This document shows, in pieces, positions 4,287-33,290 of a stretch of 64,000 nucleotides of DNA (position 1 is its first letter; the number at the start of each line of letters is the position of its first letter). The notes beneath the pieces were generated by a model. That model saw only the letters and a program-made list of their open reading frames with translations. It had not been told where the DNA came from and did no database searches. Made by a program: the position numbers and the translations under genes. Where the stretch lies: assembly GCA_964016885.1 (NCBI GenBank), contig OZ024765.1, positions 7,812,001 through 7,876,000 of the forward strand. Direction: 5' to 3'. The DNA comes from Eledone cirrhosa. Taxonomy: Eukaryota.

Positions 4287-6385
4287 TTGGGTTGTTCCGA
4301 AAATAATGGCTGCTCTAAGTGTTGTGTTTTGAAACGCAATTTTATCATAGTATTTTAATTATATTTTAGGTGAACTTCGACATACTTAATAATTGATGTA
4401 TGCTCTTTAATAATTTTATACTTATTTCAGACAGAAAACATTCTTCAAGCATAGGCGCCCTTAATTATGAACATGACATAAAAGGAGCTTCGCTTACTTT
4501 TCTTGCATGAGTTCAAGCTTGGGCATTAGGCACAATTCCTCCCATACAACTGCCAATATCAACAAGACATGGGGAGAGGGGTCCACAAGTGATCACACAG
4601 TACGAAAGGGGCTGCCAATATCAACAAGACATGGAGAGAGGGGTCAACAAGTGATCACACAGTACAAAGGGGGCTGCCAATATCAACAGAGCATGGGGAG
4701 AGGGGTCCACAAGTGATCACACAGTACAAAGGGGGCTGCCAATATCAACAAGACATGGAGAGAGGGGTCCACAAGTGATCACAGTACAAAGGGGGCTGCC
4801 AATATCAACAGAGCATGGGGAGAGGGGTCCACAAGTGATCACACAGTACAAAGGGGGCTGCCAATATCAACAGAGCATGGGGAGAGGGGTCCACAAGTGA
4901 TCACACAGTACAAAGGGGGCTGCCAATATCAACAAGACATGGAGAGAGGGGTCCACAAGTGACCACACAGTACGAAGGGGGCTGCCAATATCAACAAGAC
5001 ATGGGGAGAGGGGTCCACAAGTGATCACACAGTACAAAGGGGGCTGCCAATATCAACAGAGCATGGGGAGAGGGGTCCACAAGTGATCACACAGTACAAA
5101 GGGGGCTGCCAATATCAACAAGACATGGAGAGAGGGGTCAACAAGTGATCACACAGTACAAAGGGGGCTGCCAATATCAACAGAGCATGGGGAGAGGGGT
5201 CCACAAGTGATCACACAGTACAAAGGGGGCTGCCAATATCAACAAGACATGGAGAGAGGGGTCCACAAGTGATCACAGTACAAAGGGGGCTGCCAATATC
5301 AACAGAGCATGGGGAGAGGGGTCCACAAGTGATCACACAGTACAAAGGGGGCTGCCAATATCAACAGAGCATGGGGAGAGGGGTCCACAAGTGATCACAC
5401 AGTACAAAGGGGGCTGCCAATATCAACAAGACATGGAGAGAGGGGTCCACAAGTGACCACACAGTACGAAGGGGGCTGCCAATATCAACAAGACATGGGG
5501 AGAGGGGTCCACAAGTGATCACACAGTACAAAGGGGGCTGCCAATATCAACAAGACATGGGAAGAGGGGTCCACAAGTGATCACACAGTACGAAGGGGGC
5601 TGCCAATATCAACAGAGCATGGAGAGAGGGGTCCACAAGTGATCGCACAGTACAAAGGGGGGCTGCCAATATCAACAGAGCATGGGGAGAGGGGTCCACA
5701 AGTGATCGCACAGTACGAAGGTGGTTTCAGAAATTCCCTAGTGGTGACGAGAGCCTTGAAGATGAAGAAGGTCGAGGACAGTGATGCAGTCTTGACAATG
5801 AACAATTGAAAGCAATTGTTGAACAAAACCCACGTCAAAGTGTCAGAGAAATGTCTCAGGGACTTGGTGTCGCTATTGCAACGGTCTCACACCATCTGCA
5901 GAAGATTGGTGAGGTGAAAAAGCTTGATAAATGGGTACCACATGAGCTCAATGAAAACCAAAAAGTTCAGCTTTTTGAAGTGTGCTCGATGCTCTTTCTG
6001 TGAAACACCAATGGTCCTTTTCTTGACCGAACAGTCAATAGTCAGAGATGTATAGATGTTCACGGCTCATACTTTGACTAATCAAAACATTTCTGTTGTT
6101 AATTTTTCCAAAATAAACAACAGAAATGTTGACCTGTTCCGGAAGTTAAATAACCTGTGTATCAAATTTGAACAAAATTGGATGGAAACTGGAAATGCAT
6201 AAACTACATACAGACAGAAAGACATTTTCCTTTTTATATATATAGATATTTGTATCTACATTGGTTAGATAATTTACCACTGTAATATTAGGTTGTTCCA
6301 AAAATAATGGCCGATTTCAGAAGCATAATTTTTCCAGAATAAAATTATGCTTCTGAAATCGGCCATTATTTTTGGAACAACCTAA
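4287..6385 (+). mobile_element. Defective mariner transposon
   Basis: TIRs ttgggttgttccgaaaataatggc (4287-4310) and gccattatttttggaacaacctaa (6362-6385), each flanked by TA. Transposase pieces TAANINKTWGEGSTSDHTVR and LKAIVEQNPRQSVREMSQGLGV...KLDKWVPHEL (WVPHEL is the mariner linker motif). The catalytic domain is missing. Confidence 0.9.
4550..5720 (+). repeat. 62-bp minisatellite, ~19 copies, with 494-bp higher-order period
   Basis: Unit gctgccaatatcaacaagacatggggagaggggtccacaagtgatcacacagtacaaagggg, starting for example at 4981, 5043, 5105 and 5167. Confidence 0.95.
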
Positions 6386-6675: not shown

Positions 6676-7021
6676 TATATATATAAAATATAATCTTTGG
6701 AAGTCGATATATCATAGTTATATATTCTTTGTAGTAGAGATATTTTTAAAGTTATATGAAATATTTGTCATAGAAACAGTTTTCACACTACACAGTCACT
6801 TTTCTGTATAAATATATAACACAGTTGATTGTTCTACAGAGAAGGATATACCACAAATATCACAGTGGTTTGGCTTCTGTTGTGAGAGGTTACCACAGAT
6901 ATCACAGTGGCATGGCTTCTGTTGTGAGAGGTTGCCACAGATATCACAGTGGTATGGTTTCTCTCCCACAAGAGTAATTAAGGTACATCTTTTTTAGAAT
7001 GATTTTCCATAAATATCAACG

Positions 7022-8440
7022 CTATGGCTTCTCTCCTCTATGAATGCTTTTGTGTTCAGTTAAGTTGACACGGTGTGTGAATGATTTACCACAGATGTCA
7101 CACTGATATGGTTTCTCTCCTGTATGTGTATATTTGTGTGTAGTTAAAGTAGTGTTTTTACAGAATGATTTACCACAGATGTCACAGTGATATGGCTTCT
7201 CTCCTGAATGAATACGTTTGTGGTTAATTAAGCTATGGCCCCGAGTGAATGATTTATTACAGATATCACACTGATATGGCTTTTCTCCTGTATGAGTAAG
7301 TTTGTGTTTAGATAAGGTACTATTTTCAGAAAATGATTTACCACAGATATCACAGTGGTATGGCTTCTCTCCAGTGTGAGTACGTTTGTGGTTAAGTAAT
7401 TTCTCATTTTGAGAGAAGGATTTACCACAGATATCACATTGATAAGGCCTATCTCCCGTATGAGTTCGGTTGTGTGAAGTTAAGTTACTTCTTTCAGCGA
7501 ACGTTTTACCACAGATATCACAGTGATATGGCTTCTCACCCACATGAGTACGTTTGTGATTGATTAATCTACATTTTACATAGAATGATTTACCACAGAT
7601 ATCACAGTGATATGGTTTCTCTCCTGTATGAATGCGTTCATGTGTAGCTAAGTTACTCCGCTGAGTGAATGATTTACCACAGCTGCCACAGTGATATGGT
7701 TTCTCTCCTGTATGCGTATATTTGTGTGTAGTTAAAGTACTGCTTTTAGTGAATGATTCACCACAAATATCACAGTGATATGGTTTCTCCCCTGTATGAA
7801 TACGTTTGTGGTTACTTAAGCTCTCATTTTGAGAGAATGATTTACCACAAATATTACAATGATATGGCTTTTCTCCTGTATGTGTACGTCTGTGTTTAGT
7901 TAAAGTACTATTTTCAGTGAATGATTTACCACAGATGTCACAGTGACATGGCTTCTCTCCTGTATGAATACGTTTGTGGTTAATTAGGCTATAGCCCCGA
8001 GAGAATGATTTATTACAGATATCACAATGATATGGCTTCTCTCCTGTATGAATACGTTTGTGGATAATTAAGCTATGACCCCGAGAGAATGATTTATTAC
8101 AGATATCACAATGATATGGCTTTTCTCCTGTATGAATAAGTTTATGTTTAGATAAGGTACTATTTTCAGAAAATGATTTACCACAGCTATCACAGTAGTA
8201 TACTTTCTCTCCTGTATGACTGCATTTGTGTTCAATTAAATATTTTCCAGAGAATGATGTACCACAGATATCACAGTCATATACTTTCTCTCCCTTATGA
8301 ATACGTTTACGTCTAGTTAAGCCGTCTTTTTCAACAGGGACTGCTACCTTTTCATTCTCTTTCAGTTTTTCATCAACAAAATCAATCATTTTAGATTCTG
8401 TTTCCTGTTTGATCTGATCCTTACATAAATTAGTTTCCAT
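7022..8440 (-). CDS. Poly-C2H2 zinc finger protein, 472 aa, ~15 fingers
   Basis: Intact ATG-started ORF with tandem CxxC-x12-HxxxH fingers and TGEKPY linkers. No KRAB or SCAN domain is visible. Confidence 0.9.
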
Positions 8441-8908
8441 AATTTATCTTCTCTCACCTCAATATTCAGATATTTTTCCGGTTTTTCTATTTATAGTATA
8501 TTCCAAACAAATATTTCCCCAGCTATATTTCCATCAACTGTGATCTTTGGTGATATCTGAAGATGCTGGGAAAATTCTTTGTAAATTTGTCCAAGTTTAA
8601 TGAGAATGTGAATTTATGTTGTACACATTCCAGGTTGTGAAGTAGAGAAAAGATTTATATGTGAGGGGTTACCACAGTAGTATGGCTTCTGTTGAGAGGG
8701 GATATATTTGTGTTTAGTTAAGTTATATGTTGGAGAGAATTCTGGTTTCCCACATGAATTTATTTTTTTGTGTCTTGTAAAGTTACCACTTTGAGAGCAG
8801 GATTTACCACAGACATCACAGTGAAATGGTTTCTCTCCTGTATGAATGTGTTTGTGTCTGGTTAAGTGATCAGTTACAGAGAATGTTTTACCACGGATAT
8901 CACCACGT

Positions 8909-9943
8909 TTATACCTTTTCTTGTGTGTGAATGTGCTTGTGAGAGGTTAAGTTACTATTTTGAGAGAATGATTTACAACAGATATCACATTTATATGGCT
9001 TTTCTCCTGTATGAATGCGTATGTGAGTAGTTAAGTGACCAGTTACAGAGAATGATTTACCACAGATATCACAATGATATGGCTTCTCCCCCGTGTGTGT
9101 CCGTTGGTGTCTAGTTAAGTCACCACCACCAGAGAATGATTTACCACATTCGTCACAGTGATATGGTTTTTCACCAGTATGAAAGCGTTTGTGTTTCGTT
9201 AGATTAGAATTTTGTGAGAATGATTTACCACAGATATCACAGTGGTATGGCTTCTCTCCTGTATGAATGTGCTTGTGTTCTGTTAAGTGACCTACTTGTG
9301 AGAATCTTTGACCACAGATATCACAGCAAAATGGTTTCTCTCCTGTATGAATGCGTTTGTGTGTAGTTAAGGTGCTTTTCACAGAGAATGATTTACCACA
9401 GATTTCACAGTGGTATGGTTTCTCTCCTGTATGAATGTGGCTGTGATCTGTTAAGTGATTTATTTGAGAGAATGTTTTACCACAGATATCACAGTGGTAT
9501 GGTTTCTCTCCCACGTGAGTACGTTTGTGTCTGGTATCTTTTTCAAAGTATGATTTACCACAGATATCACCATGATACAACTTCTCTCCTGTATGAACGC
9601 ATTTGTGTATAGTTAATCTATTTCCTAGAGAGAATGATTTACCACAGATATCACAGTCATAGGGTTTCTCTCCCATATGAGTACATTCGTGTTTAGTTAA
9701 GGTACCTCTTTGAGAGAATGATTTACCACAGATATCACAGTGGTATGGTTTCTCTTCTGTATGAGTATGTTTGTGTGTAACTAAGTTTCTTCCTTCAGAG
9801 AATGATTTACCACAGATATCACAGTGATATGGCTTCTCTCTTGTATGAACACATTTGTGATTGGTGACCTCCCCCTTTTGTGAAAATGAGTTTTTACAAA
9901 TATCACATTGGTAAGATGATGTTCCTATAACATCCAACATCAT
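8909..9943 (-). CDS. Poly-C2H2 zinc finger protein, ~344 aa, 12 fingers (one degenerate)
   Basis: The ORF track starts at a GTG (9955); the first ATG is at 9943. Decayed out-of-frame fingers continue over ~8740-8908. It may be a pseudogenising copy. Confidence 0.75.
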
Positions 9944-13187: not shown

Positions 13188-13876
13188 ATCATCATCATCA
13201 TTCATCATTTCATTTTACGTCCCCTTTTTCCCTGCTTGCAAGGGTGGGACGGGAACTGATTCTGGCTCGATTTCTACAGCTGGATGCCCTTCCTCACACC
13301 AACCTCATTTACAATGAGTGCTGGGTGCTTTTTTGCCATGGCACCTCCACGACCACTTTGCAGTGGAATGATAGGGACCCCAGTCCCTATCATCTCATTT
13401 CTACAGCTGAGTAAACTGGAGCAATGTGAAATAAAGTGTCTTGCTCAAGGAAACAACACATCACCCGGTCTGAGAATTGAACTCACAACCTTTCGATTGC
13501 AAGACCAATGCTCTAACCACTAAGCCATGTGCCTCCATATCATCATTTCATTTTACGTCCGCTTTTCCCCGCATGCAAGGGTGGGACGGGAACTGATTCT
13601 GGCTTGATTTCTACAGCTGGATGCCCTTCCTAACACCAACCTCATTTACAGTGAGTGCTGGGTGCTTTTTTTTCTGTGGCACCTCCACGACCACTTTGCA
13701 GCGGAGTGATAGGGACTAGGGTCCCTATCATCTCATTTCTACAGCTGAGTAAACTGGAGCAATGTGAAATAAAGTGCCTTGCTCAAGGAAACAACACATC
13801 ACCCGGTCTGAGAATTGAACTCGCAACCTTTCGATTGCAAGGCCAATGCTCTAACCACTAAGCCATGTGCCTCCAT
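13188..13876 (-). mobile_element. Two tandem tRNA-derived SINEs, family 2
   Basis: Two ~340-bp copies. Minus-strand head ggaggcacatggcttagtggttagagca (A box), gttcaattc (B box) and (TGA)n tail. Near-identical to 44517-44861. Confidence 0.85.
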
Positions 13877-19398: not shown

Positions 19399-21072
19399 TC
19401 AAGGTTCACCTTCAATTGTACTGTTTCTATAATGTATCCTTTTGTGTCTATTTAAGACCATACTACTGGTAAAATATTTCTCACATATATCACAATTATA
19501 GGGCTTTTCTCCTGTATGAATTCTTTTATGTTGATTCAAGTCACTGCTAGTTTTAAATGCTTTAGCACAAATTCCACAGTGGTAGGGTTTTTCTCCTGTA
19601 TGGATTCTTTTGTGATCCTTAAGATGTGCCTTTTGTGTGAAAGATTTCCCACATATTTCACAGTGAAAATTTTTTTCTCCTGTGTGTATTATATTGTGTC
19701 TTGTTAAATGACTTTTCGTCCTAAAAGATTCCCCACATATTTCACAGCAGAACGGTTTTTCTGTCGTGTGTGTAACTTTATGTTTTGTTAAAATAGTTCT
19801 AGTGCTAAAAAAATGACCACATATATCACATTTATATGGTTTTTCTCCCGTGTGTGTTCTTCTGTGAAGTTTAAAACTCGATCTCCACGTGAAAGATTTC
19901 CCACATATTTCACACTGAAACAACTTCACACCAGCATGAATGATTTGATGTGTTTTAACACCACTGTTAGAGACAAACGATTTGCCACATATCTCACATT
20001 TGAACGGTTTTTCTCCAGTGTGACTACGTTTATGAATAGTAAGACTCGAATTCCGAGCGTAAGATTCACCACATATTTCACAGTGATAAGGTTTTTCTCC
20101 AGTGTGGATTCGTTCATGACTAGTTAAATTACTTTTATAATAAAAAGATTCTCCACATAATTCACAGTGATACGGCTTCTCTCCTGTGTGTGTTCTTATA
20201 TGTTTTCTTAAATCATTCTTAGAGGCAAAAGATTTATCACATGACTCACACGGAAACGGTTTCTCTCCTGTGTGTCCTCTTTTATGTATGGTTAAATTCA
20301 CAGCAGCTGCAAAAGACTTTCCACAAATTATACAGGAAAACGGTTTCTCTCCAGCGTGTCGTTTCATGTGGGCATTAAGATAAGAACCGTGACTGAATGA
20401 TTTGCCACATATGTCACAGTGACAGGTTTTTCCGCCAGTATGTATCTCCTTATGCCTCGATAAATTATTGGAACCAGTGAACGATTTCCCACATACGTCG
20501 CAACGATAGGGTTTTTCTCCACTATGTAATATTTTGTGTTTCCTTAAGGGGTCATTAGTAGTGAAACGTTTCCCACAAGTTTTACACTGGTAAGGTTTCT
20601 CCCCAGTATGAATTCTCTTGTGTCTCGTTAAATCACTTTTCGTCGCAAACGATTTCCCACATGTTTCACAAGAAAATGGTTTTTCTCCAGTATGTGTTTT
20701 CTTGTGCCTGTCAAAATTCGCTACACTAGCAAAAGATTTATTACATAGTTCACAATGATAGGGTTTTTCTCCAGTGTGACGCCTAATGTGGATTACAAGA
20801 TGGGTTTTCTGATTAAAATATTTTCCGCATATGACGCAGTAATAAAGTTTCCCTCTCTTGTGAGTTTCTTTGTGTGTGATGACTTCATCTTCTGAAGAAA
20901 AAGTTTTCTTACAAATCTCACAACAATATTCAGGAATATTTCCGTGTAACGATGTTTGTTCAGTAAACATTTCATTAGATAAAGGTTTCTCACCACTGTA
21001 TGTCTGTGTAACTGTATCTATATTGTTAAACAAAGTTGTGTTAGAAATGTCCAACTGTTTAACATCCTCCAT
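19399..21072 (-). CDS. Poly-C2H2 zinc finger protein, MEDV-leader family, 557 aa, 18 fingers
   Basis: Intact ORF with the conserved leader and TGEKP-linked fingers. Confidence 0.92.
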
Positions 21073-21728
21073 AGTAATTTCCGAGAATTATTTCTGATTA
21101 TAATATATTATAATACAGTTTCTTCTCTTAGATATCCTGGAACTCTGTTTATACGATATAATTATATTAGATGTAATTATAATATATTATAATACAGTTT
21201 CTTGTCTTAGATATCCTGGGAGTTTGTTTACATGGTAAAATTGAATATAATGAGCAATTAAAGATACAAGGTGCGACGTGACGTTTATAGCGATTACTTC
21301 CCTTGAATGAATACGGTGACACAAGATAAAAGTCTCCCACATTTAATAAAGTCGATGATAGCATTACGGTTTTGAAATCAGTGTCAACGATAAGGTATTA
21401 ATTTTCTAATTATATCTTATTTAATTATCTTATATTAATGGTGAACGTTATTGTTTGTGGATAACATAGCGTAATCTTCATATATTAGGGTAGCGGTTCC
21501 ATCATTAAAAAGCCTAAAGTCAGTTCCAGGCCCAGAGGTTCATAAGGCCAGTGCTTATCAACGTTCTCGTGGTGTTAAGCGACTGAACGTATAAGACTTC
21601 CCCCTGGACATGACGCCAGTCCATCACTAACAAGTTTAAAGTCTGTGCTGAGGCCGGAGGCTTATAATGGTTCTGTGTCATTAAGAATCTGAAAGTACAA
21701 GACTCCCTTTAGACAGGGCACCATTCCA

Positions 21729-22165: not shown

Positions 22166-22568
22166 GGCAAAAACATGTGATCCAACCACCTTGCTCCTGG
22201 TTTGGCCTGTAAAATCTGTCCAGCGATTCTTTCCTGAGACATTCTAACCACATGCCCATAGAATCAGAGTTGTGATCTCTCAATTCGTAGAATGTATTAA
22301 ATTATGCCAGGGACTTTTGCTTCACTTGACCGGTGTTTCTCAGGGGAAGCAATAACTGTCAACAATAACGAGCACTGTGTGTTTATAATTACATCTAATT
22401 TAATGATATCGTGTAAACAGAGTCCCAGGATATCTAGGACAAGAAACTGTATTATAATATATTATAATTACATCTAATCTAATTATATCGTGTAAACAGA
22501 GTCCCAGGATATCTAGGACAAGAAACTGTATTATAATATATTATCAGAGATAATTCTCGGAAATTACT

Positions 22569-23654
22569 ATGGAGGATATTAAACACTTGGACATTTCTAA
22601 CACAATTATGATTAACAATATAGATTCAGTTACACATACATACAGTGGTGAGAAACCTTTATCTAATGAAAGGTTTACTGAACAAACATCGTTACACGGA
22701 AATATTCCTGAATATTTTTGTGAGATTTGTAAGAAAACTTTCTCTTCAGAAGATGAAGTCATCACACACAAAGAAACACACAAGAGAGAGAAACCTTACC
22801 ACTGTGAAATATGTGGGAAATCTTTCGTGTCTAACAGTAATCTAAGAAGACATAAACGTAATCATATTGGAGAAAAGCCCTTCCACTGTGAAATATGTAA
22901 GAAGTCGTTTGATACTAAGCGTAACTTAACAGTGCACAAAATAATACACGCTGGAGAAAAAAAGAGTCAGTGTGAAGTATGTAGCAAATATTTCGTTAAT
23001 AATTCTAGTCTTGTTATCCACATTCGTAGTCACACTGGAGAGAAACCTTTCCACTGTGAAATTTGTGGAAAGTCTTTTGTTCATAATTGTAGTTTAACAA
23101 ACCACAAGTTAATTCACACTGGAGAAAAAACCTGCCACTGTGAAATATGTGGCAAATCTTTTTTTCTGAATTCGGGTCTTGTCATCCACAAACGTAGTCA
23201 CACTGGAGAAAAACCCTATCATTGTGAAATATGTGGTAAATCTTATATTTCTAAAAGTAATTTAACGATACATAAAAGAACACACAGTGGGGAAAAACCA
23301 TTTCATTGTGAGACTTGTGGGAAATCTTTCGTTACTAATGCAGAATTAAAAAAGCACAACAGAACACACACTGGAGAAAACCCCTTTCATTGTGAAATAT
23401 GTGGGGAGTCTTTTCGCGATAGCAGTAATTTAACAACTCACAAAAGAATCCATACTGGAGAAAAACCTTTTCACTGTGAAATTTGTGGGAAATCTTTCAC
23501 TCAAAATGCTCATCTGATAGTTCACAGGACAATGCATACAGGAGAAAAACCCTATCATTGTGAAATATGTGGGAAATCTTTCATTACTAGTAGTGTGTTG
23601 AAAAAACACAAAAGAAAACACACTGGAGGGAAGACTTTAAACTGTGAAACTTGA
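22569..23654 (+). CDS. Poly-C2H2 zinc finger protein, MEDV-leader family, 361 aa, 11 fingers
   Basis: Intact ORF, divergent from 19399-21072. Confidence 0.92.
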   Translation: MEDIKHLDISNTIMINNIDSVTHTYSGEKPLSNERFTEQTSLHGNIPEYFCEICKKTFSSEDEVITHKETHKREKPYHCEICGKSFVSNSNLRRHKRNHIGEKPFHCEICKKSFDTKRNLTVHKIIHAGEKKSQCEVCSKYFVNNSSLVIHIRSHTGEKPFHCEICGKSFVHNCSLTNHKLIHTGEKTCHCEICGKSFFLNSGLVIHKRSHTGEKPYHCEICGKSYISKSNLTIHKRTHSGEKPFHCETCGKSFVTNAELKKHNRTHTGENPFHCEICGESFRDSSNLTTHKRIHTGEKPFHCEICGKSFTQNAHLIVHRTMHTGEKPYHCEICGKSFITSSVLKKHKRKHTGGKTLNCET

Positions 23655-23904
23655 GAAATATTTCTTGTGTAAATCTAAATATATTGTCTACCAAGATGTA
23701 CACACTGGGGAATATTTATAGTGAAATATGTGATTTGATAAATGTATACACACTGGATAAATTATATACACACACATATCTATGTAATATACATCTACAC
23801 ACATACACATATATATAGTATACATCTACACACATATATATATAAATTATATATACACACACAGACACACATATATATATATGTGTGCATATATGTTTAT
23901 ATAG

Positions 23905-24320
23905 AGACTGAGCATAAGAGGAATGAAATGCTGTGTGCAGGAGAGGAGGTTGCGTTGGTATGGACATGTGATGCGTATGAAGGCGATGACACAGGACCGA
24001 GACCTCTGGCGTCCCGCAGTAATACAGAAGACCCCCCCCCCCCCCCCGGGTACAAGCCAAAGCTGAAGCATATAGACAGTACGCCCACCCCCCTCCCACT
24101 GCAAAGTGGTCGTGGAGGTATCATGACAAAAGGCACCCAGAAACTCACTGTAAATGAGGTTGGTGTTAGGAAGGGGATCCAGCTGTAGAAATCAAGCCAG
24201 AATCAGTTCCTGTATGAGCAAGACAAGGTTACCCAACCAGACACTGCCCACAACAGGACAACCTGTCTAACCCATGCTAGCGTGGAAGAACAGACGTAAA
24301 ACGGTGATGATGATGATGAT
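23905..24320 (+). mobile_element. RTE LINE 3' fragment fused to a SINE tail
   Basis: gtgcaggagaggaggttgcgttggtatggacatgtg (QERRLRWYGHV) is shared with 29292; it is followed by a SINE 3' end with (TGA)n. Confidence 0.6.
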
Positions 24321-24384
24321 ATATATAAAATGTGGGCAATCATTCAGTGTGAAGTATGTCTACACTTGTAGTTCACAGCTAAAT

Positions 24385-24558
24385 ACAAACAGTTGGACAT
24401 TTCTAACAGAACTTTGTTTAACAATATAGATAGAGTAACACAGACATACAGTGTGAGAAACCTTTATCTAATGAAACATTTACTGAACACACATTGTTAC
24501 ACGGAAATATTCCTGAATATTGTTGTGAGATTTGTAAGAAAACTTTCTCTTCAGAAGC
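24385..24558 (+). pseudogene. Isolated frameshifted copy of the ZNF leader
   Basis: aaacagttggacatttctaacaga...actttctcttcagaag matches the family leader, but it lacks the ATG and is truncated inside finger 1. Confidence 0.8.
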
Positions 24559-24789
24559 TGAATGCTTCAGCCTTCAAAAAATATGACTTACAGAATACCC
24601 AGTGGTAGACTGCCAAGCAAAGTGGTTGGATAACAATCTTGGACTTGGCTTGCCTGGGGATCCAAATAGATCAATTGGTGACAGTTGCTTGTGACAGACC
24701 TGCTTGAAGACTCTGTCCACCACAACCCTCCCAGGAACAAATGCATGAAGAAGAAGAAGAAATATGTTGGAAATGACTTTCTTAGTTCT

Positions 24790-25340
24790 TATAATAATAA
24801 TAATGAAATTATTGTGTACATTGCTCAGGTGCACTACAACTCATCAAAGGTGCATATATAGTACATAGGATAATGTACAAATGTCAGGAAACTTAACTAC
24901 ATACACACAAGTCATGATATACACACAGATACACGTGTGTGTATGGAGGGGGAATAGCAGGTATAGTGTTGGTGAATTTCAGGAAACATGAAAGTTTTAA
25001 AGGATGCAGTGTCTCGACAGCTAACAACTGATGCAGAGAGTTTGTTCCATGGAGGTTTTAAAGGATGCAGTGTCTCAACAGCTAACAACTGATGCAGGTA
25101 GTTTGTTCTATGCTTCAGCAACTCTGAGCGTGAAGAAATGTTTCCGAAAGTCATGGGAGCTGTGCTGTTTTCTGACTTTGTAGGCATGCCCACATGTGTT
25201 AGACACATGGAATACAAAAAGGTGCTCAGGGTTGTTGTTGGAAAGATGGTTAATAATTTTGTGGGTGTTTACAAAGTCAGTTGCCAAACGTCGGAGCTTC
25301 AATGTATCCATACCCAGGGTGTTAGACACATGGAAATCGA
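24790..25340 (-). mobile_element. CR1-like LINE 3' fragment
   Basis: MDTLKLRRLATD...KHFFTLRVAEA plus the 3' UTR and (TAA)n tail match 60165-60620. An oppositely oriented 3' end lies at ~25680-25955. Confidence 0.8.
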
Positions 25341-26224
25341 AAAGGTGTGTTGTAATCCTCAAATACAAAAAAAGATCTATCTTCTCTTATTGATGATTAA
25401 AGTTTTTTTACAGAGACACAACCTTATTTATGAGGACTGGAAAAACACGAGGCTAAAACCTTATGTGAAATTTGTGGTAAATTCTACATTACTCTATATA
25501 TACTATTATATTTTCATGGTAAAAGCTTTACCTCACTTTATATCGAATCTATGAAATTTTGATAACAATACCTTAACATAAATATGAGCAGCCAGTTATG
25601 ACCAGTTTGAACAGAAAGAGGTGAGAGAATTCTGGCCAGATACGGCTGGTTTAAATGCTAAAGGGTTAAAAGCCAAGTTGTTATGCTCAGAGTTACTGAA
25701 GTATGGAACAAGCTACCTGCATCAGTTGTTATCTGTCAAGACACTGCATCCTTTAAAACCTCTATGCTTCCTGAAATTCACCAACACTACACCTGATATT
25801 CCCCCTCCATACACAGACACACATGTATATCATGACTCATATACTGTTCACTTTCCTGACATTTGTACATTATTCTATGTACTATACATGCACCTTTGAT
25901 GAGTTGTAGTGCACCTGAGCACTGTACACAATAATTTCATTATTATTATTATAACCAAATATACATATGAGGAAAATATCATTGAGATGATTTGTGGAAT
26001 ATATTTTCTATAAATTGAAGTAAAAAGATAAAATTACTGAGAAATTCATATAAAATCTTATGGTAATTTATGAAAAATTATCCTGAAAAAATACAGTTTT
26101 GTGTAAATTAAAATATTATTTTATAAATTTTATAACTATATTTTTTTCTTGTTATTTTCTGAACAGTCAGAATTATTATATTATATATATATATATATAA
26201 TAACCTTAATATTTATTATATTAT

Positions 26225-26410
26225 AGTGGATTGGCAGTATCGGTAAAGGGTCGGATGCCATGCTTTCCAGCATAGTTACGTCCCTTTATGATCTGAGTTC
26301 AAATCCTGCCGAGGTTAACTTTGCCTTTCATCCTTACGGGGTCGATAAAATAAAGTACCAGTAATGTACTGGGATAATTGCTGGCCTTGTGCCAAAAGTA
26401 GAAACAATTA
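26225..26410 (+). mobile_element. tRNA-derived SINE, family 1
   Basis: gtggattggcagtatcggta...gagttcaaatcc...gtagaaacaatta, the reverse complement of the 48360 copy. Confidence 0.85.
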
Positions 26411-26424
26411 TATTATATTATATA

Positions 26425-27053
26425 CTAGCAGTGGTATCCGGCGTTGCAGGGGATAAGGTATTGTGAAATATATAACCGCCTTAGCTAAGCTTAGTATTGC
26501 CACAACCACAGCTGGCAAAGAAGTAAGGGTCTGGTGGTACATAAGTAAACAACACTGTGGCTTAAAACGTGAGGAAGAAGTTGTGTGCATTTACCAACTG
26601 TTTGGAATGAGTGTGAGATTTGTCTTGAGCAAGGGTGGCAGAATAACCGGAGGCAGCAGACAGCCAGACATACAGACAGATATTATAAGGGCGTGTTTGG
26701 CAGAATAACCGGAGACAGCCAGACATACAGACATATTATAAGGGTGCGTTCTGGACGCAGGGCGAATTGTAGGAAGTGACGTAATGCAGCCAGACATACA
26801 GACAGATATTATAAGGGCGCGAAGTTATATGTATGTATCTTAAAAGAGAAAGACTAAGAATTATAGAGAGAGATCGCTAAATCGCCTAATGCGGTCCCTA
26901 GGGAATTGAAAATTTGAAAATTTTTTTGCTCATAACACTCCCTGAAACAAGTATTACATGTGTAAAGTTTGAAAACAGTCAGTTGGGTGGTTCTCTAGTT
27001 TTAGGGATTCAAACTCACACACACACAGACATCCTCAGTTTTATATATATAGA
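26425..27053 (-). mobile_element. Non-autonomous Helitron-like element, family B, with internal ~55-bp repeats
   Basis: The minus strand starts tctatatatataaaactgagg and ends ...gcaacgccggataccactgctag. Both termini are shared with 61747-62266. Confidence 0.7.
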
Positions 27054-27304
27054 TATAATAATAACCTTAATAATAATTATTATACTATATATATATATAG
27101 AATAATAACCTCTCTTTCCTTTTCTTATTAAAAAAATAATTTTGATAATTATTTAGGTATACCTAGCGTCTAAACATAACAGTCTTTTTCAGTTATCCCC
27201 ATTAGCATATTCATCTTGTGTTTTGAAGTTCACCACTATTCAAATAGAACTCACAACATTGAGTACTTGTCTGAATATGTCACTATCTGTAAACCAACTT
27301 TTGC

Positions 27305-27363
27305 ATTTTATCTGATGAGAGCGTACCAAAATACTGGTACCCTTGAAATATATATAATAAAAT
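27305..27363 (+). ncRNA. Type I minimal hammerhead ribozyme motif, family H3
   Basis: attttat-CTGATGA-gagcgtacca aaatac tggtaccctt-GAA-atatatat-A-ataaaat. Stem I 7 of 7 bp, stem II 9 of 10 bp, palindromic stem III, AUA triplet, AATAAA directly downstream. Confidence 0.75.
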
Positions 27364-27423
27364 AAATATGGTTTTATAGATAAATATAGTTTCCATTTAT
27401 TAATATTATTGATATATATATAT

Positions 27424-27772
27424 AATTGTTTCTACTTCAGGCACAAGGCCAGCAATTACCCAGTGCATTACTGGTACTTTATTTTATCGACCCCGTAAGG
27501 ATGAAAGGCAAAGTCAATCTCGGCGGGAATTGAACTCAGATCGTAAAGGGACGTAACTATGCTGGAAAGCATGGCATCCGACCCTCTATATATTGATATA
27601 TATATATAATTGTTTCTACTTTAGGCACAAGGCCAGCAATTACCCAGTGAATTACTGGTACTTTATTTTATCGACCCCGTAAGGATGAAAGGCAAAGTCA
27701 ATCTCGGCGGGAATTGAACTCAGATCGTAAAGGGACGTAACTATGCTGGAAAGCATGGCGTCCGACCCTCTA
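27424..27772 (-). mobile_element. Two tandem SINE family 1 copies
   Basis: aattgtttctactt...gaccctcta occurs twice, ~185 bp apart. Confidence 0.85.
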
Positions 27773-27799
27773 TATATTGTTATATATATATAATAATAA

Positions 27800-28502
27800 G
27801 TTGACGGACCCAGCATATTTATCAATGCCAGGACCAGTTGCATCTCAGCGTACTCAATAGGCAATGTAAGATACATTCCCAGAGTACAACACACGTAAAA
27901 CGGGTGCCTATATTAGTTCCCGGACTCAAGTTTTGGCCACACTTAATGCAGCAGTAAGGTGCACTGCGCCCTCTGTCTGCATATATTATGCAACAATGCA
28001 TAATCGGCACATGCGGCTTGATCAGCGGGTTTCACCTAATCAATAACTGCGTTTTTTTCAGCATTTTAGGGGTTTTTGAGTCATTACGTCAGACTGATTT
28101 CCTTGAAATTGTAACTATGTATTAGTCAGTCTCTTCTTCATACCATGAGCAAAGAAAATCCAACTTTTTTATGGCCTAGGGCCTGCATTAGGTGAAAAAC
28201 CTCATTTTTTCAGCTTTTTAGGGCTTTTTGGAGGCGTTACGTCTAGCCGATTTTCCCGAAATTTCAAGGCATATTATGCACATAAAAAAAAATTATTTTC
28301 TTGATCCCCTAGGGCCCGCATTAGGTGAAAACCTGCATTTTCCCTGCTTCATCGAGTAAAATCTTAAAGATTATCCAGCCATCAGAGTATTTGTTTTTTT
28401 CTTTACATATTGTCCAGGCATGCAGTTTTTCCACGGTTAGGTGTGTTGGTGGCCCGCATTCCAAAATACCTTATCCCATGCAACGCCGGGTACCACTGCT
28501 AG
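27800..28502 (+). mobile_element. Helitron-like element, family B related
   Basis: 3' end ...gcaacgccgggtaccactgctag. ~28090-28502 is the reverse complement of 61747-62145. The 5' boundary is uncertain. Confidence 0.6.
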
Positions 28503-28697
28503 TAATATATATATATATATGAAGGCGCATGGCTTAGTGGTTAGAGCATTGGGCTTGCAATTGAAACGTTGTGAGTTTGATTCTCCAACCAGGTGATGCG
28601 TTGTGTCCTTCATGTTGCTCCAGTTTACTCAGCTGTAGAAATAAGTTGCGATGTCACTGGTGTCAAACTATCAGCCATTGCCTTTCCCTTGGACAAC

Positions 28698-28872
28698 ATA
28701 TAGAGTGTATATATAGAGTGTATATATAGTGTATATATAGAATATATAGTGTATATATAGAGTATATAGTGTATATATAGCGTATATAGTGTATATATAG
28801 AGTATATAGTGTATATATAGAGTGTATAGTGTACATATAGCGTGTATAGTGTACATATAGAGTATATAGTGT
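28698..28872. repeat. Compound (TATATAGAG/TATATAGTG)n microsatellite between two opposed SINE family 2 heads
   Basis: SINE heads at ~28521-28695 (+) and ~28873-29051 (-) flank the run. Confidence 0.8.
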
Positions 28873-29089
28873 CTTGGCTCATTTAATGATAGGGAACCCA
28901 GTCCTATCATCTCATTTCTACAGCTGAGTAAACTGGAGCAACGTGAAATAAAGTGCCTTGCTCAAGGAAACAACACATCACCCGGTCCGAGAATTGAACT
29001 CATAACCTCTCGATTGCAAGCCCAATGCTCTAACCACTAAGCAATGTGCCTTGTTGTAACTTAATTTGTAGAAATTATTATCTTTCGTT

Positions 29090-29545
29090 TCTTAGTTCAC
29101 TGGGTAGCATTAATGTCCAGTTGTTACATGGAAGTGAAACATGGGCGCTGTGTGCAGAAAACTTGTATAGATTGGAAAGAAATGAAGCCTGCACGCTCTG
29201 ATGGATATGTGATAGTAATTTACGTGAGCAGCAAAGCATAAACAAACTGAGAGAGAGAGAGAGACTAAGCATAAGAGGAATAAAATGGTGTGTGCAGGAG
29301 AGGAGATTGCGTTGGTATGGACATGTGAGGCATATGAAGGATGACAGCTGCATAAAAAGGTGCAGAGCACTAAAAGTCGATGGCTGCCTTGGAGTGGGGA
29401 GACCCAAGAAAACCAGGGATGAGGTGATAAAAGCTGACCTTACTCAATTGTACCTCTCAACGGCGATGGCACAGGACCGTGACCTCTGGCGTCACGCAGT
29501 AATACAGAAGATCCGAGTTCCCACGGGTACAAGCCGAAGCTGAAG
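29090..29545 (+). mobile_element. RTE LINE 3' coding fragment
   Basis: QERRLRWYGHVRHM...GRPKKTRDEVIKADL...AQDRDLWR is a typical RTE C-terminus. Confidence 0.8.
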
Positions 29546-30224
29546 CATATAGACAATATGCCCCCACCTCCCTCCCACTGTAAAGTGGTTGTGTAGGTGT
29601 CACAACAAAAAGCACCAAGTCCACACTGTAAAGTAGTCATGTAGGTGCCATGACAAAAAGCAAAAAAGCACCCAGTTCTCACATTTATTTATACATAGTA
29701 TATATTATATATAGATTAACTATTTTATTTATTATATATTATTTACAATTTGCGTATAAGCAGATCTCTCTGGAAACAGGGTTGAGGGGCGCTGAGTGTT
29801 TTACGTTGGCGTGAGGGTGTGTGTTTGGCCGTGCGGGGGTGGGGGTGGCCTCGGGGGTTTGAGAATCTCTGATCTAATGACTGGAAATTCGTCGATTGTC
29901 ATCGTAAGTATAGATTTAATATTTTGAGGAGTTGTGTTTCCGAATGTATTAAACTATGTCAGGAACTTTTACCTTACGTCACCGGTGAGTTTCAAGGGAG
30001 GCAACCAATATCAACAACACCGAGCACCTGTGTGTTTATAATTGCATCTACCGTAATTATATCGTGTAAACAGAGTCCCAGGATATCTAAGACAAGAAAC
30101 TAAACTATAATATATTATAATTACATCTAATCTAATTATATCGTGTAAACAGAGTCCCAGGATATCTAGGACAAGAAACTCTATTATAATATATTATAAT
30201 CAGAAATAATTCTCGGAAATTCCT

Positions 30225-31685
30225 ATGGAGGGTGTTAAACAGTTGGACATTTCTAACACAACTTTGTTTAACAATATAGATACAGTTACACAGACATACA
30301 GTGGTGAGAAACCTTTATCTAATGAAACGTTTACTGAACAAACATCATTACATCGAAATATTCCTGAATATTGTTGTGAGATTTGTAAGAAAACTTTCTC
30401 TTCAGAAGATGAAGTCATCACACACAAAGAAACACACAAGCGTGAAAAGGCTTTTCTCTGTGAAATTTGTGGCAAATCTTTTGCCAGTAACAGTTATTTA
30501 ACGAAACACAAAGGAACACACACTGGAGAGGATCTATTTTATTGTGAGATATGTGGGAAATCCTTTATAAATAATTCAAAACTTGTTATCCACAGACGTA
30601 CACACACTGGAGAGAAACCTTTTCACTGTGAAATATGTGGCAAATCTTTCATCTCCGGCAGTAATTTAACAGCACACAAATTAGAACACACTGGAGAGAA
30701 ACCTTTCCATTGTAAAGTATGTGGGGAATCTTTTGTCACTAAAGGAGATTTAAGAAGGCACAAAAGAACACACTCTGGTAATTCTCATCGTGTTAGTTAT
30801 AAACAGAGTGATCCTGTAGAAAAGTCGTATGATTGTGAAATATGTGGGAAATCCTTAGCACTGAAAGGTAATTTGATAAGGCACCGAAGAATACACACTG
30901 GGGAAAAACCCTTTAGCTGTGAAACATGTGGAGCAGCTTTCATTGACAAAGCTCGTCTTGTTGCCCATAACATGAAACATACCGGAGAAAAACCTTTCAA
31001 ATGTGAAACGTGTGGTAAATCTTTCCAAACGAATGCTCACTTAAAAACCCACACACAAATACACACAGGAGAAAAAAATCGCCATTGCCAAATATGTGGG
31101 AGATCTTTTATTCAGCATGCAAGTCTTGTTATTCACTTACGTAGTCACACTGGAGAAAAACCATATCATTGTGAAATGTGTGGGAAATCTTTCGTTTCAA
31201 AACATAGTTTAGTGGAACATGAAAGAAGACATACTGGTGAAAGACCGTTTCATTGTGAAATATGTGGGAAATCGTTTGTTACTAATATGGAGTTAACAAA
31301 TCATGTAAGGTTTCACACGGGAGAAAAATCGTTCCACTGTGAAATCTGTGGGGCATCTTTTATCGATAGCAGCAATTTAAGGACACATAAAAGGATACAC
31401 ACTGGAGAAAAACCTTTTCATTGTGAAACATGCGGAGCTTCATTCACACAAAAAGCTCACCTTTTAGGTCACAAAACAATACACACGGGAGAACGACCTT
31501 TTCCTTGTGATACATGTGGACAATCTTTTGTTAGTAACAGTCAACTAAAAATCCACAGACGTAGACATACTGGAGAAAAACCCTATCATTGTGAAATATG
31601 TGGGAAATCTTTCATTACTAGTAGTGTGCTAAAAAGACACAAAAGAATACACATTGGAGGAAAGACTTTAAACTGTGAACCTTGA
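30225..31685 (+). CDS. Poly-C2H2 zinc finger protein, MEDV-leader family, 486 aa, 15 fingers in two blocks
   Basis: Intact ORF with a spacer GNSHRVSYKQSDPVEKS between fingers 5 and 6. Confidence 0.92.
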   Translation: MEGVKQLDISNTTLFNNIDTVTQTYSGEKPLSNETFTEQTSLHRNIPEYCCEICKKTFSSEDEVITHKETHKREKAFLCEICGKSFASNSYLTKHKGTHTGEDLFYCEICGKSFINNSKLVIHRRTHTGEKPFHCEICGKSFISGSNLTAHKLEHTGEKPFHCKVCGESFVTKGDLRRHKRTHSGNSHRVSYKQSDPVEKSYDCEICGKSLALKGNLIRHRRIHTGEKPFSCETCGAAFIDKARLVAHNMKHTGEKPFKCETCGKSFQTNAHLKTHTQIHTGEKNRHCQICGRSFIQHASLVIHLRSHTGEKPYHCEMCGKSFVSKHSLVEHERRHTGERPFHCEICGKSFVTNMELTNHVRFHTGEKSFHCEICGASFIDSSNLRTHKRIHTGEKPFHCETCGASFTQKAHLLGHKTIHTGERPFPCDTCGQSFVSNSQLKIHRRRHTGEKPYHCEICGKSFITSSVLKRHKRIHIGGKTLNCEP

Positions 31686-32364: not shown

Positions 32365-33290
32365 GAGCATATAAATAAATTTACTGTAGAATAACATAAA
32401 TATGTTATAAATATATACATAATTAATATTACAAATGCTTAGACAACATTATGAATTGCTCGCGACTCATTCAGAAAGATATATTCTTTTAATGTTACAA
32501 TATTAAAGAAAATGTAGAGGAAGGGGTGAACAACCGAGCAAAAGACAGCAGCAAGGAGTACCGGTCAACCTCTCTAATGAGAGTGATGGCGAGGCTAATG
32601 CGCTGGAACAGCCAAGCATATTTGAGGGTCTTACTCCGCTCGGCTGCAGAAGCTGCAGCTCTCGTCCTAACCGCAGCATCCAGGATGTGGGAGAAAGCAA
32701 AAGAGTCACTAACAGGGACGTCCCAGACAAGGCACCTGCCTCTCGACCAGGGGCACAATGTAAGGCCGTCAGGTCTTTTGCCATCACTTCTGGACAACCC
32801 AGATGGATCCAAGACTGAGGGGATGTTCACCCGGGCCAAAGCTCTCTTGAGAATGAGGTTTAGCTCTGTGTGACGCGCAAAGCAGCCGGCATTAAGGTGG
32901 CAAGAAAGACTGTGGAGTCGAGGAGTTTTCCGCATCGGCACGTTAAACCCATGCAGACGTCAGCTCCCACTCTGAGAGCGATGGAGATACGAAGTTCGTC
33001 CAGGCTGAGTAGACCACCAACGTTGGCCACGGGTAGGGCATCGACCCAGTCACTTGAGTATTTGGCGCTGGCAGATAGCAAGCGGCACCTTGCAAACTGA
33101 TCTGACAGTTATGATGTCCCAAGTTCTCTGACTTCACCTATCTTCCACCTTCTCAGGAAGAGACAACCCCAACTCACTCCATTGCTGGAGAGCTTCACCC
33201 TACTCCCTGATGGAACTAGTCCATGTTGCTCACCAGGGTGGTGCAAGTGTAGGTGGAGGAAAGGAAGCAGGGGAGAGAGAGGGACGATAT
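32365..33290 (-). mobile_element. CRE-like non-LTR retrotransposon C-terminal fragment (zinc knuckle plus restriction-like endonuclease)
   Basis: RISIALRVGADVC...CRCG...H..SC...RH.ELN..LKRAL...DGKRPDGLTLCPW..G..LVWDV...WLFQRISLAI, read across frames. Confidence 0.75.

What the first reader, a model, noticed from the sequence alone, without database searches (positions are those of the whole stretch)
27305..27363. Structurally complete minimal hammerhead ribozyme next to a poly(A) signal
Seen: invariant core CUGAUGA and GAAA, a perfect 7-bp stem I (attttat/ataaaat), a 10-bp stem II with one mismatch, a self-complementary stem III (ATATATAT) and an NUH triplet (AUA) predicting cleavage after 27356. 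AATAAA follows at once. Established: Penelope-like elements and non-LTR retrozymes in animals carry type I minimal hammerheads with short palindromic stem III that can act as dimers. Inference: this is the terminal repeat of such an element and may still self-cleave. No ORF explains it.
Basis: partly seen in the sequence, partly recalled or inferred. Interest (0 to 1): 0.75.

Follow-up and report, generated by a model that had tools for sequence, protein, structure and literature searches.

The report
Hammerhead in broken Penelope-type retrotransposon end
This is a real self-cutting-RNA motif at the end of a truncated, solitary copy of a known kind of jumping gene; tens of thousands of relatives keep its fold, which likely works only in pairs, so this lone copy is probably a fossil and cutting is untested.

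Summary
The hammerhead is real and more than chance. It lies in a ~315-bp, 5'-truncated 3' end (27101-27415) of a Penelope-like retrotransposon (PLE) inserted in (TA)n. Longer copies carry one RT plus C-terminal GIY-YIG ORF with the Hydra-clade motifs. Tandem copies have a hammerhead in each pseudo-LTR, about 200 nt before the ATG; a sister family has intact ~800-aa ORFs. The exact 3' half occurs 2,243 times and a relaxed pattern 53,557 times (reversed control 0). Across families stem II covaries, its C-C 'mismatch' is a fixed feature, and stem III stays self-complementary even at its two central bases (UG 17,887 versus CA 501), which can pair only between two molecules. AATAAA is part of stem I and spans the cut site, so it is probably not a poly(A) signal. 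The window copy has an intact core but no partner or ORF within 64 kb and is probably inert. It is not a retrozyme. Cleavage and expression are untested. PLE hammerheads, including one octopus Hydra family, are published, and this scan has already reported this clan elsewhere in the genome (e1-8670794, e1-8664523).

The parts
27101..27415 (+). 5'-truncated 3' end (3' UTR / pseudo-LTR piece) of a Hydra-type Penelope-like element; short-end class; (TA)n on both sides; exact 3' end ambiguous over 27411-27415
   Evidence: boundaries against 29 other loci; link to RT-EN ORF; no other piece in the window
27305..27363 (+). type I hammerhead ribozyme motif, dimer-type
27312..27318 (+). catalytic core 5' box (C3-A9), matches the consensus
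   Evidence: consensus as given in PMC3088659
27319..27344 (+). stem II: G-U first pair, unpaired C27322/C27341 at the fourth position (fixed across families), 6-nt variable loop
27345..27356 (+). GAAA box, 8-nt self-complementary stem III (27348-27355), predicted cut after A27356
27356..27366 (+). two overlapping AATAAA hexamers formed by the cut-site base, the stem I 3' strand and 3 further bases; probably not a poly(A) signal
   Evidence: second hexamer present in 0 of 70 copies of the largest sister family; 0 of 30 copies end in poly(A)
27276..27388 (+). predicted long hairpin that extends stem I beyond an internal loop (prediction only); its 5' edge matches the point where similarity to other subfamilies stops
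   Evidence: (hits start at 27271-27276)
27407..27794 (+). later insertion: two tandem copies of an abundant short repeat (SINE; label recalled), period 184; the 20-bp repeat flanking them includes the last bases of the PLE fragment

Best explanation
This is the hammerhead-bearing 3' end of a 5'-truncated, solitary copy of a Hydra-type Penelope-like retrotransposon inserted in a (TA)n tract; in tandem source copies the motif likely cuts the precursor RNA slowly as a two-molecule pair, and this lone copy is probably inert. Shown: element boundaries; linkage to an RT plus C-terminal endonuclease ORF in other copies; tandem pLTR-ORF-pLTR copies with hammerheads 3.7-4.0 kb apart and 195-219 nt from the cut to the ATG; covariation of stems II and III across families; two preferred 3' ends about 55 and 140 nt past the cut; no partner in the window. 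Inferred: read-through RNA of a tandem copy brings two hammerheads together, the 8-nt palindromes form an intermolecular stem III, each core cuts the other's AUA, and a unit-length RNA with a short 5' leader is released, possibly with help from the element's protein. Also inferred: copies were reverse-transcribed from uncut or re-ligated RNA, starting at one of two internal sites, because they run through the cut site. The window copy started at the proximal site, stopped after ~315 nt and has drifted since.
For: Family and boundaries. ORF linkage. Tandem structure: L057, L165, L169, L171. Intact 798-aa and 809-aa ORFs in a sister family; the model's best PDB match is telomerase RT 3du5, E 2.2e-08; 36 homologues at E<=1e-10. 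Hydra motifs DKT, CxCx5C, CxxC, CxH and no CCHH (definitions in PMC8557442 section 11). Copy numbers 2,243 and 53,557, control 0. Covariation on 10 representatives: 94% of 199 cells paired; 7 of 9 stem II pairs and 2 of 4 stem III pairs change on both sides; 0 of 500 shuffles reach the score; slid controls 36-53%. Centre of palindrome UG 17,887 versus CA 501. Dimer-active fold -22.0 versus two active monomers -9.4 kcal/mol. Two end classes; 6 of 6 inverted pairs examined have one long and one short end, like the published PLE tail (PMC11167929).
Against: No cleavage or expression data. Even the dimer's lowest-energy fold (-26.3) is not the active one (-22.0). The first pair of stem II is G-U or A-U instead of the usual G-C, and stem II is interrupted after three pairs. 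Within the family the core (2.6% departures) is not better kept than the next 21 bases downstream (2.1%), and 13 of 48 copies have a core change. Core and stem I conservation between families is partly circular, because my patterns demanded them. The UG/CA excess may rest on few founder events, and the shuffle control ignores relatedness. Pfam support is weak: GIY-YIG in 3 of 31 members (best E 0.0035), RVT_1 in 1 of 31, none for the genome's own 798-aa ORF; no PDB hit by sequence profile. Units are 3.7 kb against 'generally <3 kb' for Hydra. No tree with named Hydra sequences was built. For another PLE, cleavage was not needed for insertion in vitro.
Confidence: 0.85

Rival explanations
1. 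The motif is kept for its fold (a protein-binding, packaging or translation-control structure in the pseudo-LTR / 5' leader) and cleavage is incidental or negligible.
For: Copies run through the cut site: in 173 of 182 the base after the cut is the A that closes stem I. Fixed unpaired C and non-canonical first pair of stem II. In the anole PLE, core mutants did not impair insertion in vitro and no RNA-seq reads began or ended at the cut (PMC11167929).
Against: The exact catalytic letters and a cleavable triplet are shared by families whose stem II is only 56% identical (partly selected by my pattern). In that same paper the ribozyme did cleave when the protein was present.
Confidence: 0.25
2. 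The window copy is still cleavage-competent in cells, as a monomer stabilised by its long outer stem or in trans with RNA from one of the thousands of sibling copies, and could cut a host transcript in the zinc-finger cluster.
For: Core and stems carry no departure from the family majority; changes within the motif fall in loop II. Forcing stem I costs only about 1 kcal/mol in the 125-nt context. Same strand as the flanking zinc-finger frames at 22554 and 30210.
Against: No partner within 64 kb. The palindrome duplex is weak (-3.2 kcal/mol). A single minimal PLE hammerhead showed no cleavage in PMC4209133. Best siblings are only 92% identical. No evidence that the site is transcribed.
Confidence: 0.1
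3. It is a monomer of a non-LTR retrozyme (short non-coding tandem repeat replicating as circular RNA).
For: Most copies are short and non-coding; in a position-ordered sample many lose similarity to the reference copy 12-80 nt upstream of the core.
Against: Among 100 listed exact copies, 15 divergent pairs and 1 convergent pair lie within 1 kb, and 0 same-strand pairs (counted by eye). No tandem array at this site. Longer copies run continuously into the PLE ORF.
Confidence: 0.03
4. Chance arrangement of A/T-rich and (TA)n sequence.
For: Stems I and III are all A/T in a genome rich in (TA)n; no Rfam hit.
Against: 0 of 100 simulated windows give an equal hit; compensatory changes across families; sister families replace the TA palindrome with a G/C-containing palindrome.
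Confidence: 0.01

Closest known systems
Hydra clade of C-terminal EN+ Penelope-like elements, including Hydra-1_Obim (Craig et al. 2021, PMC8557442; read: abstract, introduction, sections 11-12, passages, supplement parts 1, 2 and 52 of 59)
   Same: Single RT plus C-terminal GIY-YIG ORF, DKT, CxCx5C linker, CxxC and CxH, no CCHH, (TA)n targets, hammerhead near the 3' end, tandem and inverted insertions; U before GAA is common in their hammerhead table too.
   Different: Not the Hydra-1_Obim family by its hammerhead. The Hydra hammerheads listed have a 3-4 bp stem III with a 1-3 nt loop; this clan has an 8-nt palindrome with no loop and a fixed unpaired C in stem II, which I did not see in their Hydra rows. 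RWK reads RWR/RWI/RWT. Unit is about 3.7 kb with a 1.0-1.3 kb 3' UTR. Tail is about 85-95 nt against 30-40 bp.
Minimal hammerheads of metazoan PLEs (Cervera and de la Pena 2014, PMC4209133; parts 1-2 of 4 read). Lunse et al. 2016 seen only as a citation in PMC6765202; not held.
   Same: Type I, in pLTRs, long stem II, palindromic stem III region, mostly solitary truncated copies, some opposite-strand pairs 100-700 bp apart, proposed dimer activity.
   Different: Their motifs have a short stem I (4-5 bp), an extra base before a conserved G10.1-C11.1 pair and little or no stem III. Here stem I is 7-8 bp, the first pair is purine-U, and the palindrome is 8 nt, closer to their 'small palindromic helix III' variants.
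Poseidon element PAc of the green anole (Frangieh et al. 2024, PMC11167929; parts 1-2 of 4 read)
   Same: Two internal reverse-transcription start sites that explain the tail; uncut RNA as template; A/T-rich targets.
   Different: Other clade; its hammerhead overlaps the start codon, whereas here the cut lies 195-219 nt upstream of the ATG.
Animal non-LTR retrozymes (PMC7229834, passages read; bioRxiv 10.64898/2026.07.22.740005, part 1 of 5 read)
   Same: Type I hammerhead with weak stem III, very high copy numbers (up to 120,000 in axolotl by a section heading).
   Different: Retrozymes are non-coding head-to-tail repeats of 150-450 bp; this family is the end of a coding element and shows no such arrays in my samples.

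Membership tests
Type I hammerhead ribozyme | Core C3 U4 G5 A6 N7 G8 A9, G12 A13 A14, A15.1-U16.1, H17 | tested here: met
   consensus in PMC3088659
Type I hammerhead ribozyme | Three helices with open stem I, supported by covariation | tested here: met
   stem I itself barely varies, so its support is conservation only
Type I hammerhead ribozyme | Paired 10.1-11.1 (usually G-C) | tested here: met
   paired in 176 of 182 copies, but as G-U or A-U in 7 of 8 families
Type I hammerhead ribozyme | Match to an Rfam hammerhead model | tested here: not met
Type I hammerhead ribozyme | Site-specific self-cleavage | not testable with these tools
   needs a bench assay
Dimer-type PLE hammerheads | Palindromic stem III unstable in one molecule, stable between two | tested here: met
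   (computed energies and counts, not binding data)
Penelope-like elements (EN+) | Telomerase-like RT and GIY-YIG endonuclease in one ORF | tested here: met
   in related copies, not in the window; GIY-YIG support by Pfam is weak
Penelope-like elements (EN+) | Pseudo-LTRs from partial tandems, inverted 5'-truncated copies, one-sided tail | tested here: met
Hydra clade | DKT motif; CxCx5C linker; CxxC and CxH at the C-terminus; no CCHH between GIY and YIG | tested here: met
   read by eye against PMC8557442 section 11
Hydra clade | RWK motif | tested here: inconclusive
   RW conserved, third residue R, I or T; 2 of the 12 homologues also read RWR
Hydra clade | Insertion into (TA)n | tested here: met
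   (58 of 66 window-family copies run into (TA)n within 260 nt of the cut)
Hydra clade | Generally shorter than 3 kb | tested here: not met
   hammerhead-to-hammerhead 3,676 (L171) and 3,709 (L169); a tendency in the paper, not a strict criterion
Hydra clade | Placement in the Hydra clade of an RT tree | not tested
   named reference sequences were available only as paper text
Non-LTR retrozymes | Head-to-tail 150-450 bp non-coding units with a hammerhead in each | tested here: not met

The most novel reading that the evidence does not exclude
This clan is a distinct hammerhead architecture: an obligate dimer with a loop-free 8-bp intermolecular stem III, a purine-U first pair and a fixed flipped-out C in stem II that replaces the usual loop-loop contact or serves as a handle for the element's own protein. 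It is selected in source elements that still have intact ORFs and two hammerheads, so it offers a complete natural system for testing what PLE ribozymes are for.
Probability: 0.3. Interest if true: 0.55.

Novelty: new member of a known kind. Interest (0 to 1): 0.27.

Why it matters
The locus itself is one old fragment among tens of thousands. The clan matters modestly. The purpose of PLE hammerheads is described as unclear (PMC8557442). Here a natural series of families shows selection on bases that can pair only between two molecules, and a sister family offers intact tandem elements for an assay. Rfam misses this site, so such motifs are probably under-annotated.

Tried and rejected
Rfam at two thresholds: no hammerhead. 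Pfam on five ORF pieces: nothing relevant. PDB by sequence: only weak PDZ-type matches at E>=0.08 and none by profile. Bacterial promoter scan is irrelevant to this genome and at chance level. Self-comparison of 23600-30300 found no paralogous empty site for the insertion. Sequencing runs for a sister-family element: no RNA holder listed. Two of the four runs, of unknown kind and held as contigs, were laid: depth was far higher over the hammerhead end than over the 5' ORF, but contigs show neither ends nor copy number, so it is not used as evidence. A first structure job modelled a homologue rather than this genome's ORF and was not collected. Lunse et al. 2016 could not be read; it may already describe similar variants. 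Poly(A) reading rejected (see parts). An idea that the cut leaves a (UA)n end that primes on (TA)n targets was rejected: copies end about 55 or 140 nt beyond the cut. Literature searches showed no paper on this family or on the fixed stem II mismatch; most subscription journals and Repbase are not covered, and 56 of 59 parts of the Craig supplement were not read.

Full report
1. The observation. The motif is present as described: 7-bp stem I, CUGAUGA, 10-position stem II with one C-C opposition and a G-U first pair, GAAA, an 8-nt palindrome, and the triplet AUA with the predicted cut after 27356. My type I descriptor finds this site alone in the window, 1 hit in 100 simulated windows and none with a 7-bp stem I. 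Rfam does not detect it, and the isolated 59-mer is predicted to form only stem II. The AATAAA hexamers are 27356-27361 and 27361-27366, so the first is made of the cut-site base and the stem I strand.

2. What it belongs to. The window is G000:C26:7812001-7876000 of a 3.0-Gb genome. It is probably an octopus; that is inferred from the zinc-finger cluster and recalled repeat types, not from a call. A DNA search gave 1,897 candidates, of which 40 were scored, the best siblings at 92%. The shared stretch is 27101 to about 27415, with (TA)n on both sides. Other copies share the 3' end but extend variably upstream, some by 1.4 kb or more, into the C-terminus of an ORF. Fetching further gave RT and endonuclease frames. 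Of the 20 loci picked by the endonuclease piece and fetched, 19 also match the window stretch. L057 is a full pLTR-ORF-pLTR tandem, 78% like the window; its ORF is broken and both hammerheads have a disturbed stem I. I found no intact ORF in the window's own subfamily among the loci examined (longest frames 456 and 404 aa). The window holds no ORF piece and no second hammerhead.

3. The clan. The exact 28-base 3' half occurs 2,243 times. A pattern fixing stem I, the core and the palindrome ends but leaving stem II and four central bases free occurs 53,557 times, with 0 for the reversed control. From all loci I collected 182 distinct motifs and sorted them by hand rules into 8 families. A sister family with a G/C palindrome has intact ORFs: 798 aa between two same-strand hammerheads in L169 and 809 aa in L157; a third, L165, stops at 728 aa. 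The L169 model (mean pLDDT 75) matches telomerase RT best. DKT, CxCx5C, CxxC, CxH and the lack of CCHH fit the Hydra clade as defined in PMC8557442. That paper lists Hydra-1_Obim with a different hammerhead. Sequence-level domain support is weak, and no tree was built.

4. Is the fold selected? Positions that my patterns left free answer this. In stem II, nine of the first ten positions pair in 154-178 of 182 copies with different pairs in different families, while the fourth pairs in only 3 of 182 and is C opposite C or U in all 8 families. On 10 representatives, 7 of 9 stem II pairs and 2 of 4 stem III pairs change on both sides; no shuffle of 500 reached the score, though that control ignores relatedness. 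The two central bases of the palindrome are UA, CG or UG in 178 of 182. Genome-wide, UG occurs 17,887 times and CA 501 times. Decay of CG in DNA would make both equally (established knowledge), but only UG can still pair, and adjacent bases can pair only across two molecules. This favours selection for a dimer, with the caveat that a few founders could produce the excess. Computed energies agree: active dimer -22.0, two active monomers -9.4 kcal/mol; the lowest dimer fold, -26.3, is inactive. Within the family, individual copies decay: 13 of 48 have a core change, and the core (2.6%) is no better kept than the adjacent 3' flank (2.1%), though better than the 5' flank (7.5-8.5%) and loop II (12.5%) (this set is biased towards similarity with the window).

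5. How copies arise. Window-family copies meet (TA)n mostly 50-59 nt (30 of 66) or 130-149 nt (16 of 66) after the cut. Among the 100 listed exact copies, 15 divergent pairs lie within 1 kb and no same-strand pair does (by eye). All 6 such pairs that I read have one long and one short end. This matches two internal start sites for reverse transcription, as shown for an anole PLE (PMC11167929). Copies run through the cut site, so the template was uncut or re-ligated (inferred). A lead from earlier notes, small stems just past each end, holds partly: the first stem is in 4 of 4 tandem junctions and the second in 2 of 4 by my pattern. The window copy is short-class. Two SINE-like copies came later, since their flanking 20-bp repeat includes the fragment's last bases.

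6. Mechanism. Most likely (0.85 for the whole reading): in tandem source copies the two hammerheads of a read-through RNA pair through the palindrome and cut slowly, perhaps only with the element's protein, 195-219 nt upstream of the ATG. Published PLE minimal hammerheads were inactive alone and weak as dimers (PMC4209133). The lone window copy keeps an intact core by descent and is probably inert. Rivals are a structural, non-catalytic role (0.25, compatible with the same origin), residual activity of this copy (0.1), retrozyme (0.03) and chance (0.01). No expression evidence either way was obtained.

7. Novelty. PLE hammerheads, their dimer model and an octopus Hydra family are in print. The copy number is large but below the axolotl figure. 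The loop-free palindrome and fixed mismatch did not appear in six literature searches, but Lunse et al. 2016 could not be read, and earlier notes of this scan report the same mismatch and palindromes on other pieces of this genome; I reached them before that look-up and count those notes as no support. Verdict: new member of a known kind, interest 0.27.

Noticed in passing
L064 ~5605-5616, L065 ~2418-2435, L070 ~6040, L057 ~5955: The hammerhead's own TA palindrome, or the bases just after it, is an insertion site for other (TA)n-seeking repeats: the repeat that lies at window 26420-27057 in L064 and L065, the SINE in L070 and L057. The G/C-palindrome family would avoid this.
   Followed up: partly
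window 26420-27057: Another dispersed repeat directly upstream of the PLE fragment; its ends resemble Helentron-associated non-autonomous elements (label recalled, not tested).
   Followed up: no
window 6996-9849, 19399-21087, 22554-23654, 30210-31685, 35354-59327: Cluster of tandemly duplicated C2H2 zinc-finger frames, most with a 79-bp repeat upstream and an 82-bp repeat downstream.
   Followed up: no
L031 ~6161, L034 ~6864 and ~2459, L072, L074, L076: Other hammerhead families unrelated to this clan; the L031 one has a 4+1+4 stem III like Hydra-1_Obim and lies ~1.1 kb downstream of a 35%-identical endonuclease piece.
   Followed up: no
L140 1141/1500, L142 1560/1989, L174 543/849: Hammerhead ends of different families stacked on the same strand 300-430 bp apart; mixed dimers might be possible in read-through RNA.
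   Followed up: no
L169 580-654 aa; L058 linker: A long low-confidence Asn-rich insert between RT and the CxCx5C linker, absent from the 12 homologues aligned.
   Followed up: no
window 13470-13527 (-): Weak tRNA-like Rfam match (30.5 bits) inside a 338-bp duplicated repeat; probably a tRNA-derived SINE head.
   Followed up: no
window 4550-5721: Well-preserved 62-bp tandem array, 19 copies, 94% matches.
   Followed up: no
window 32493-33108 (-): Broken frames that read like a non-LTR retrotransposon C-terminus (recalled resemblance).
   Followed up: no
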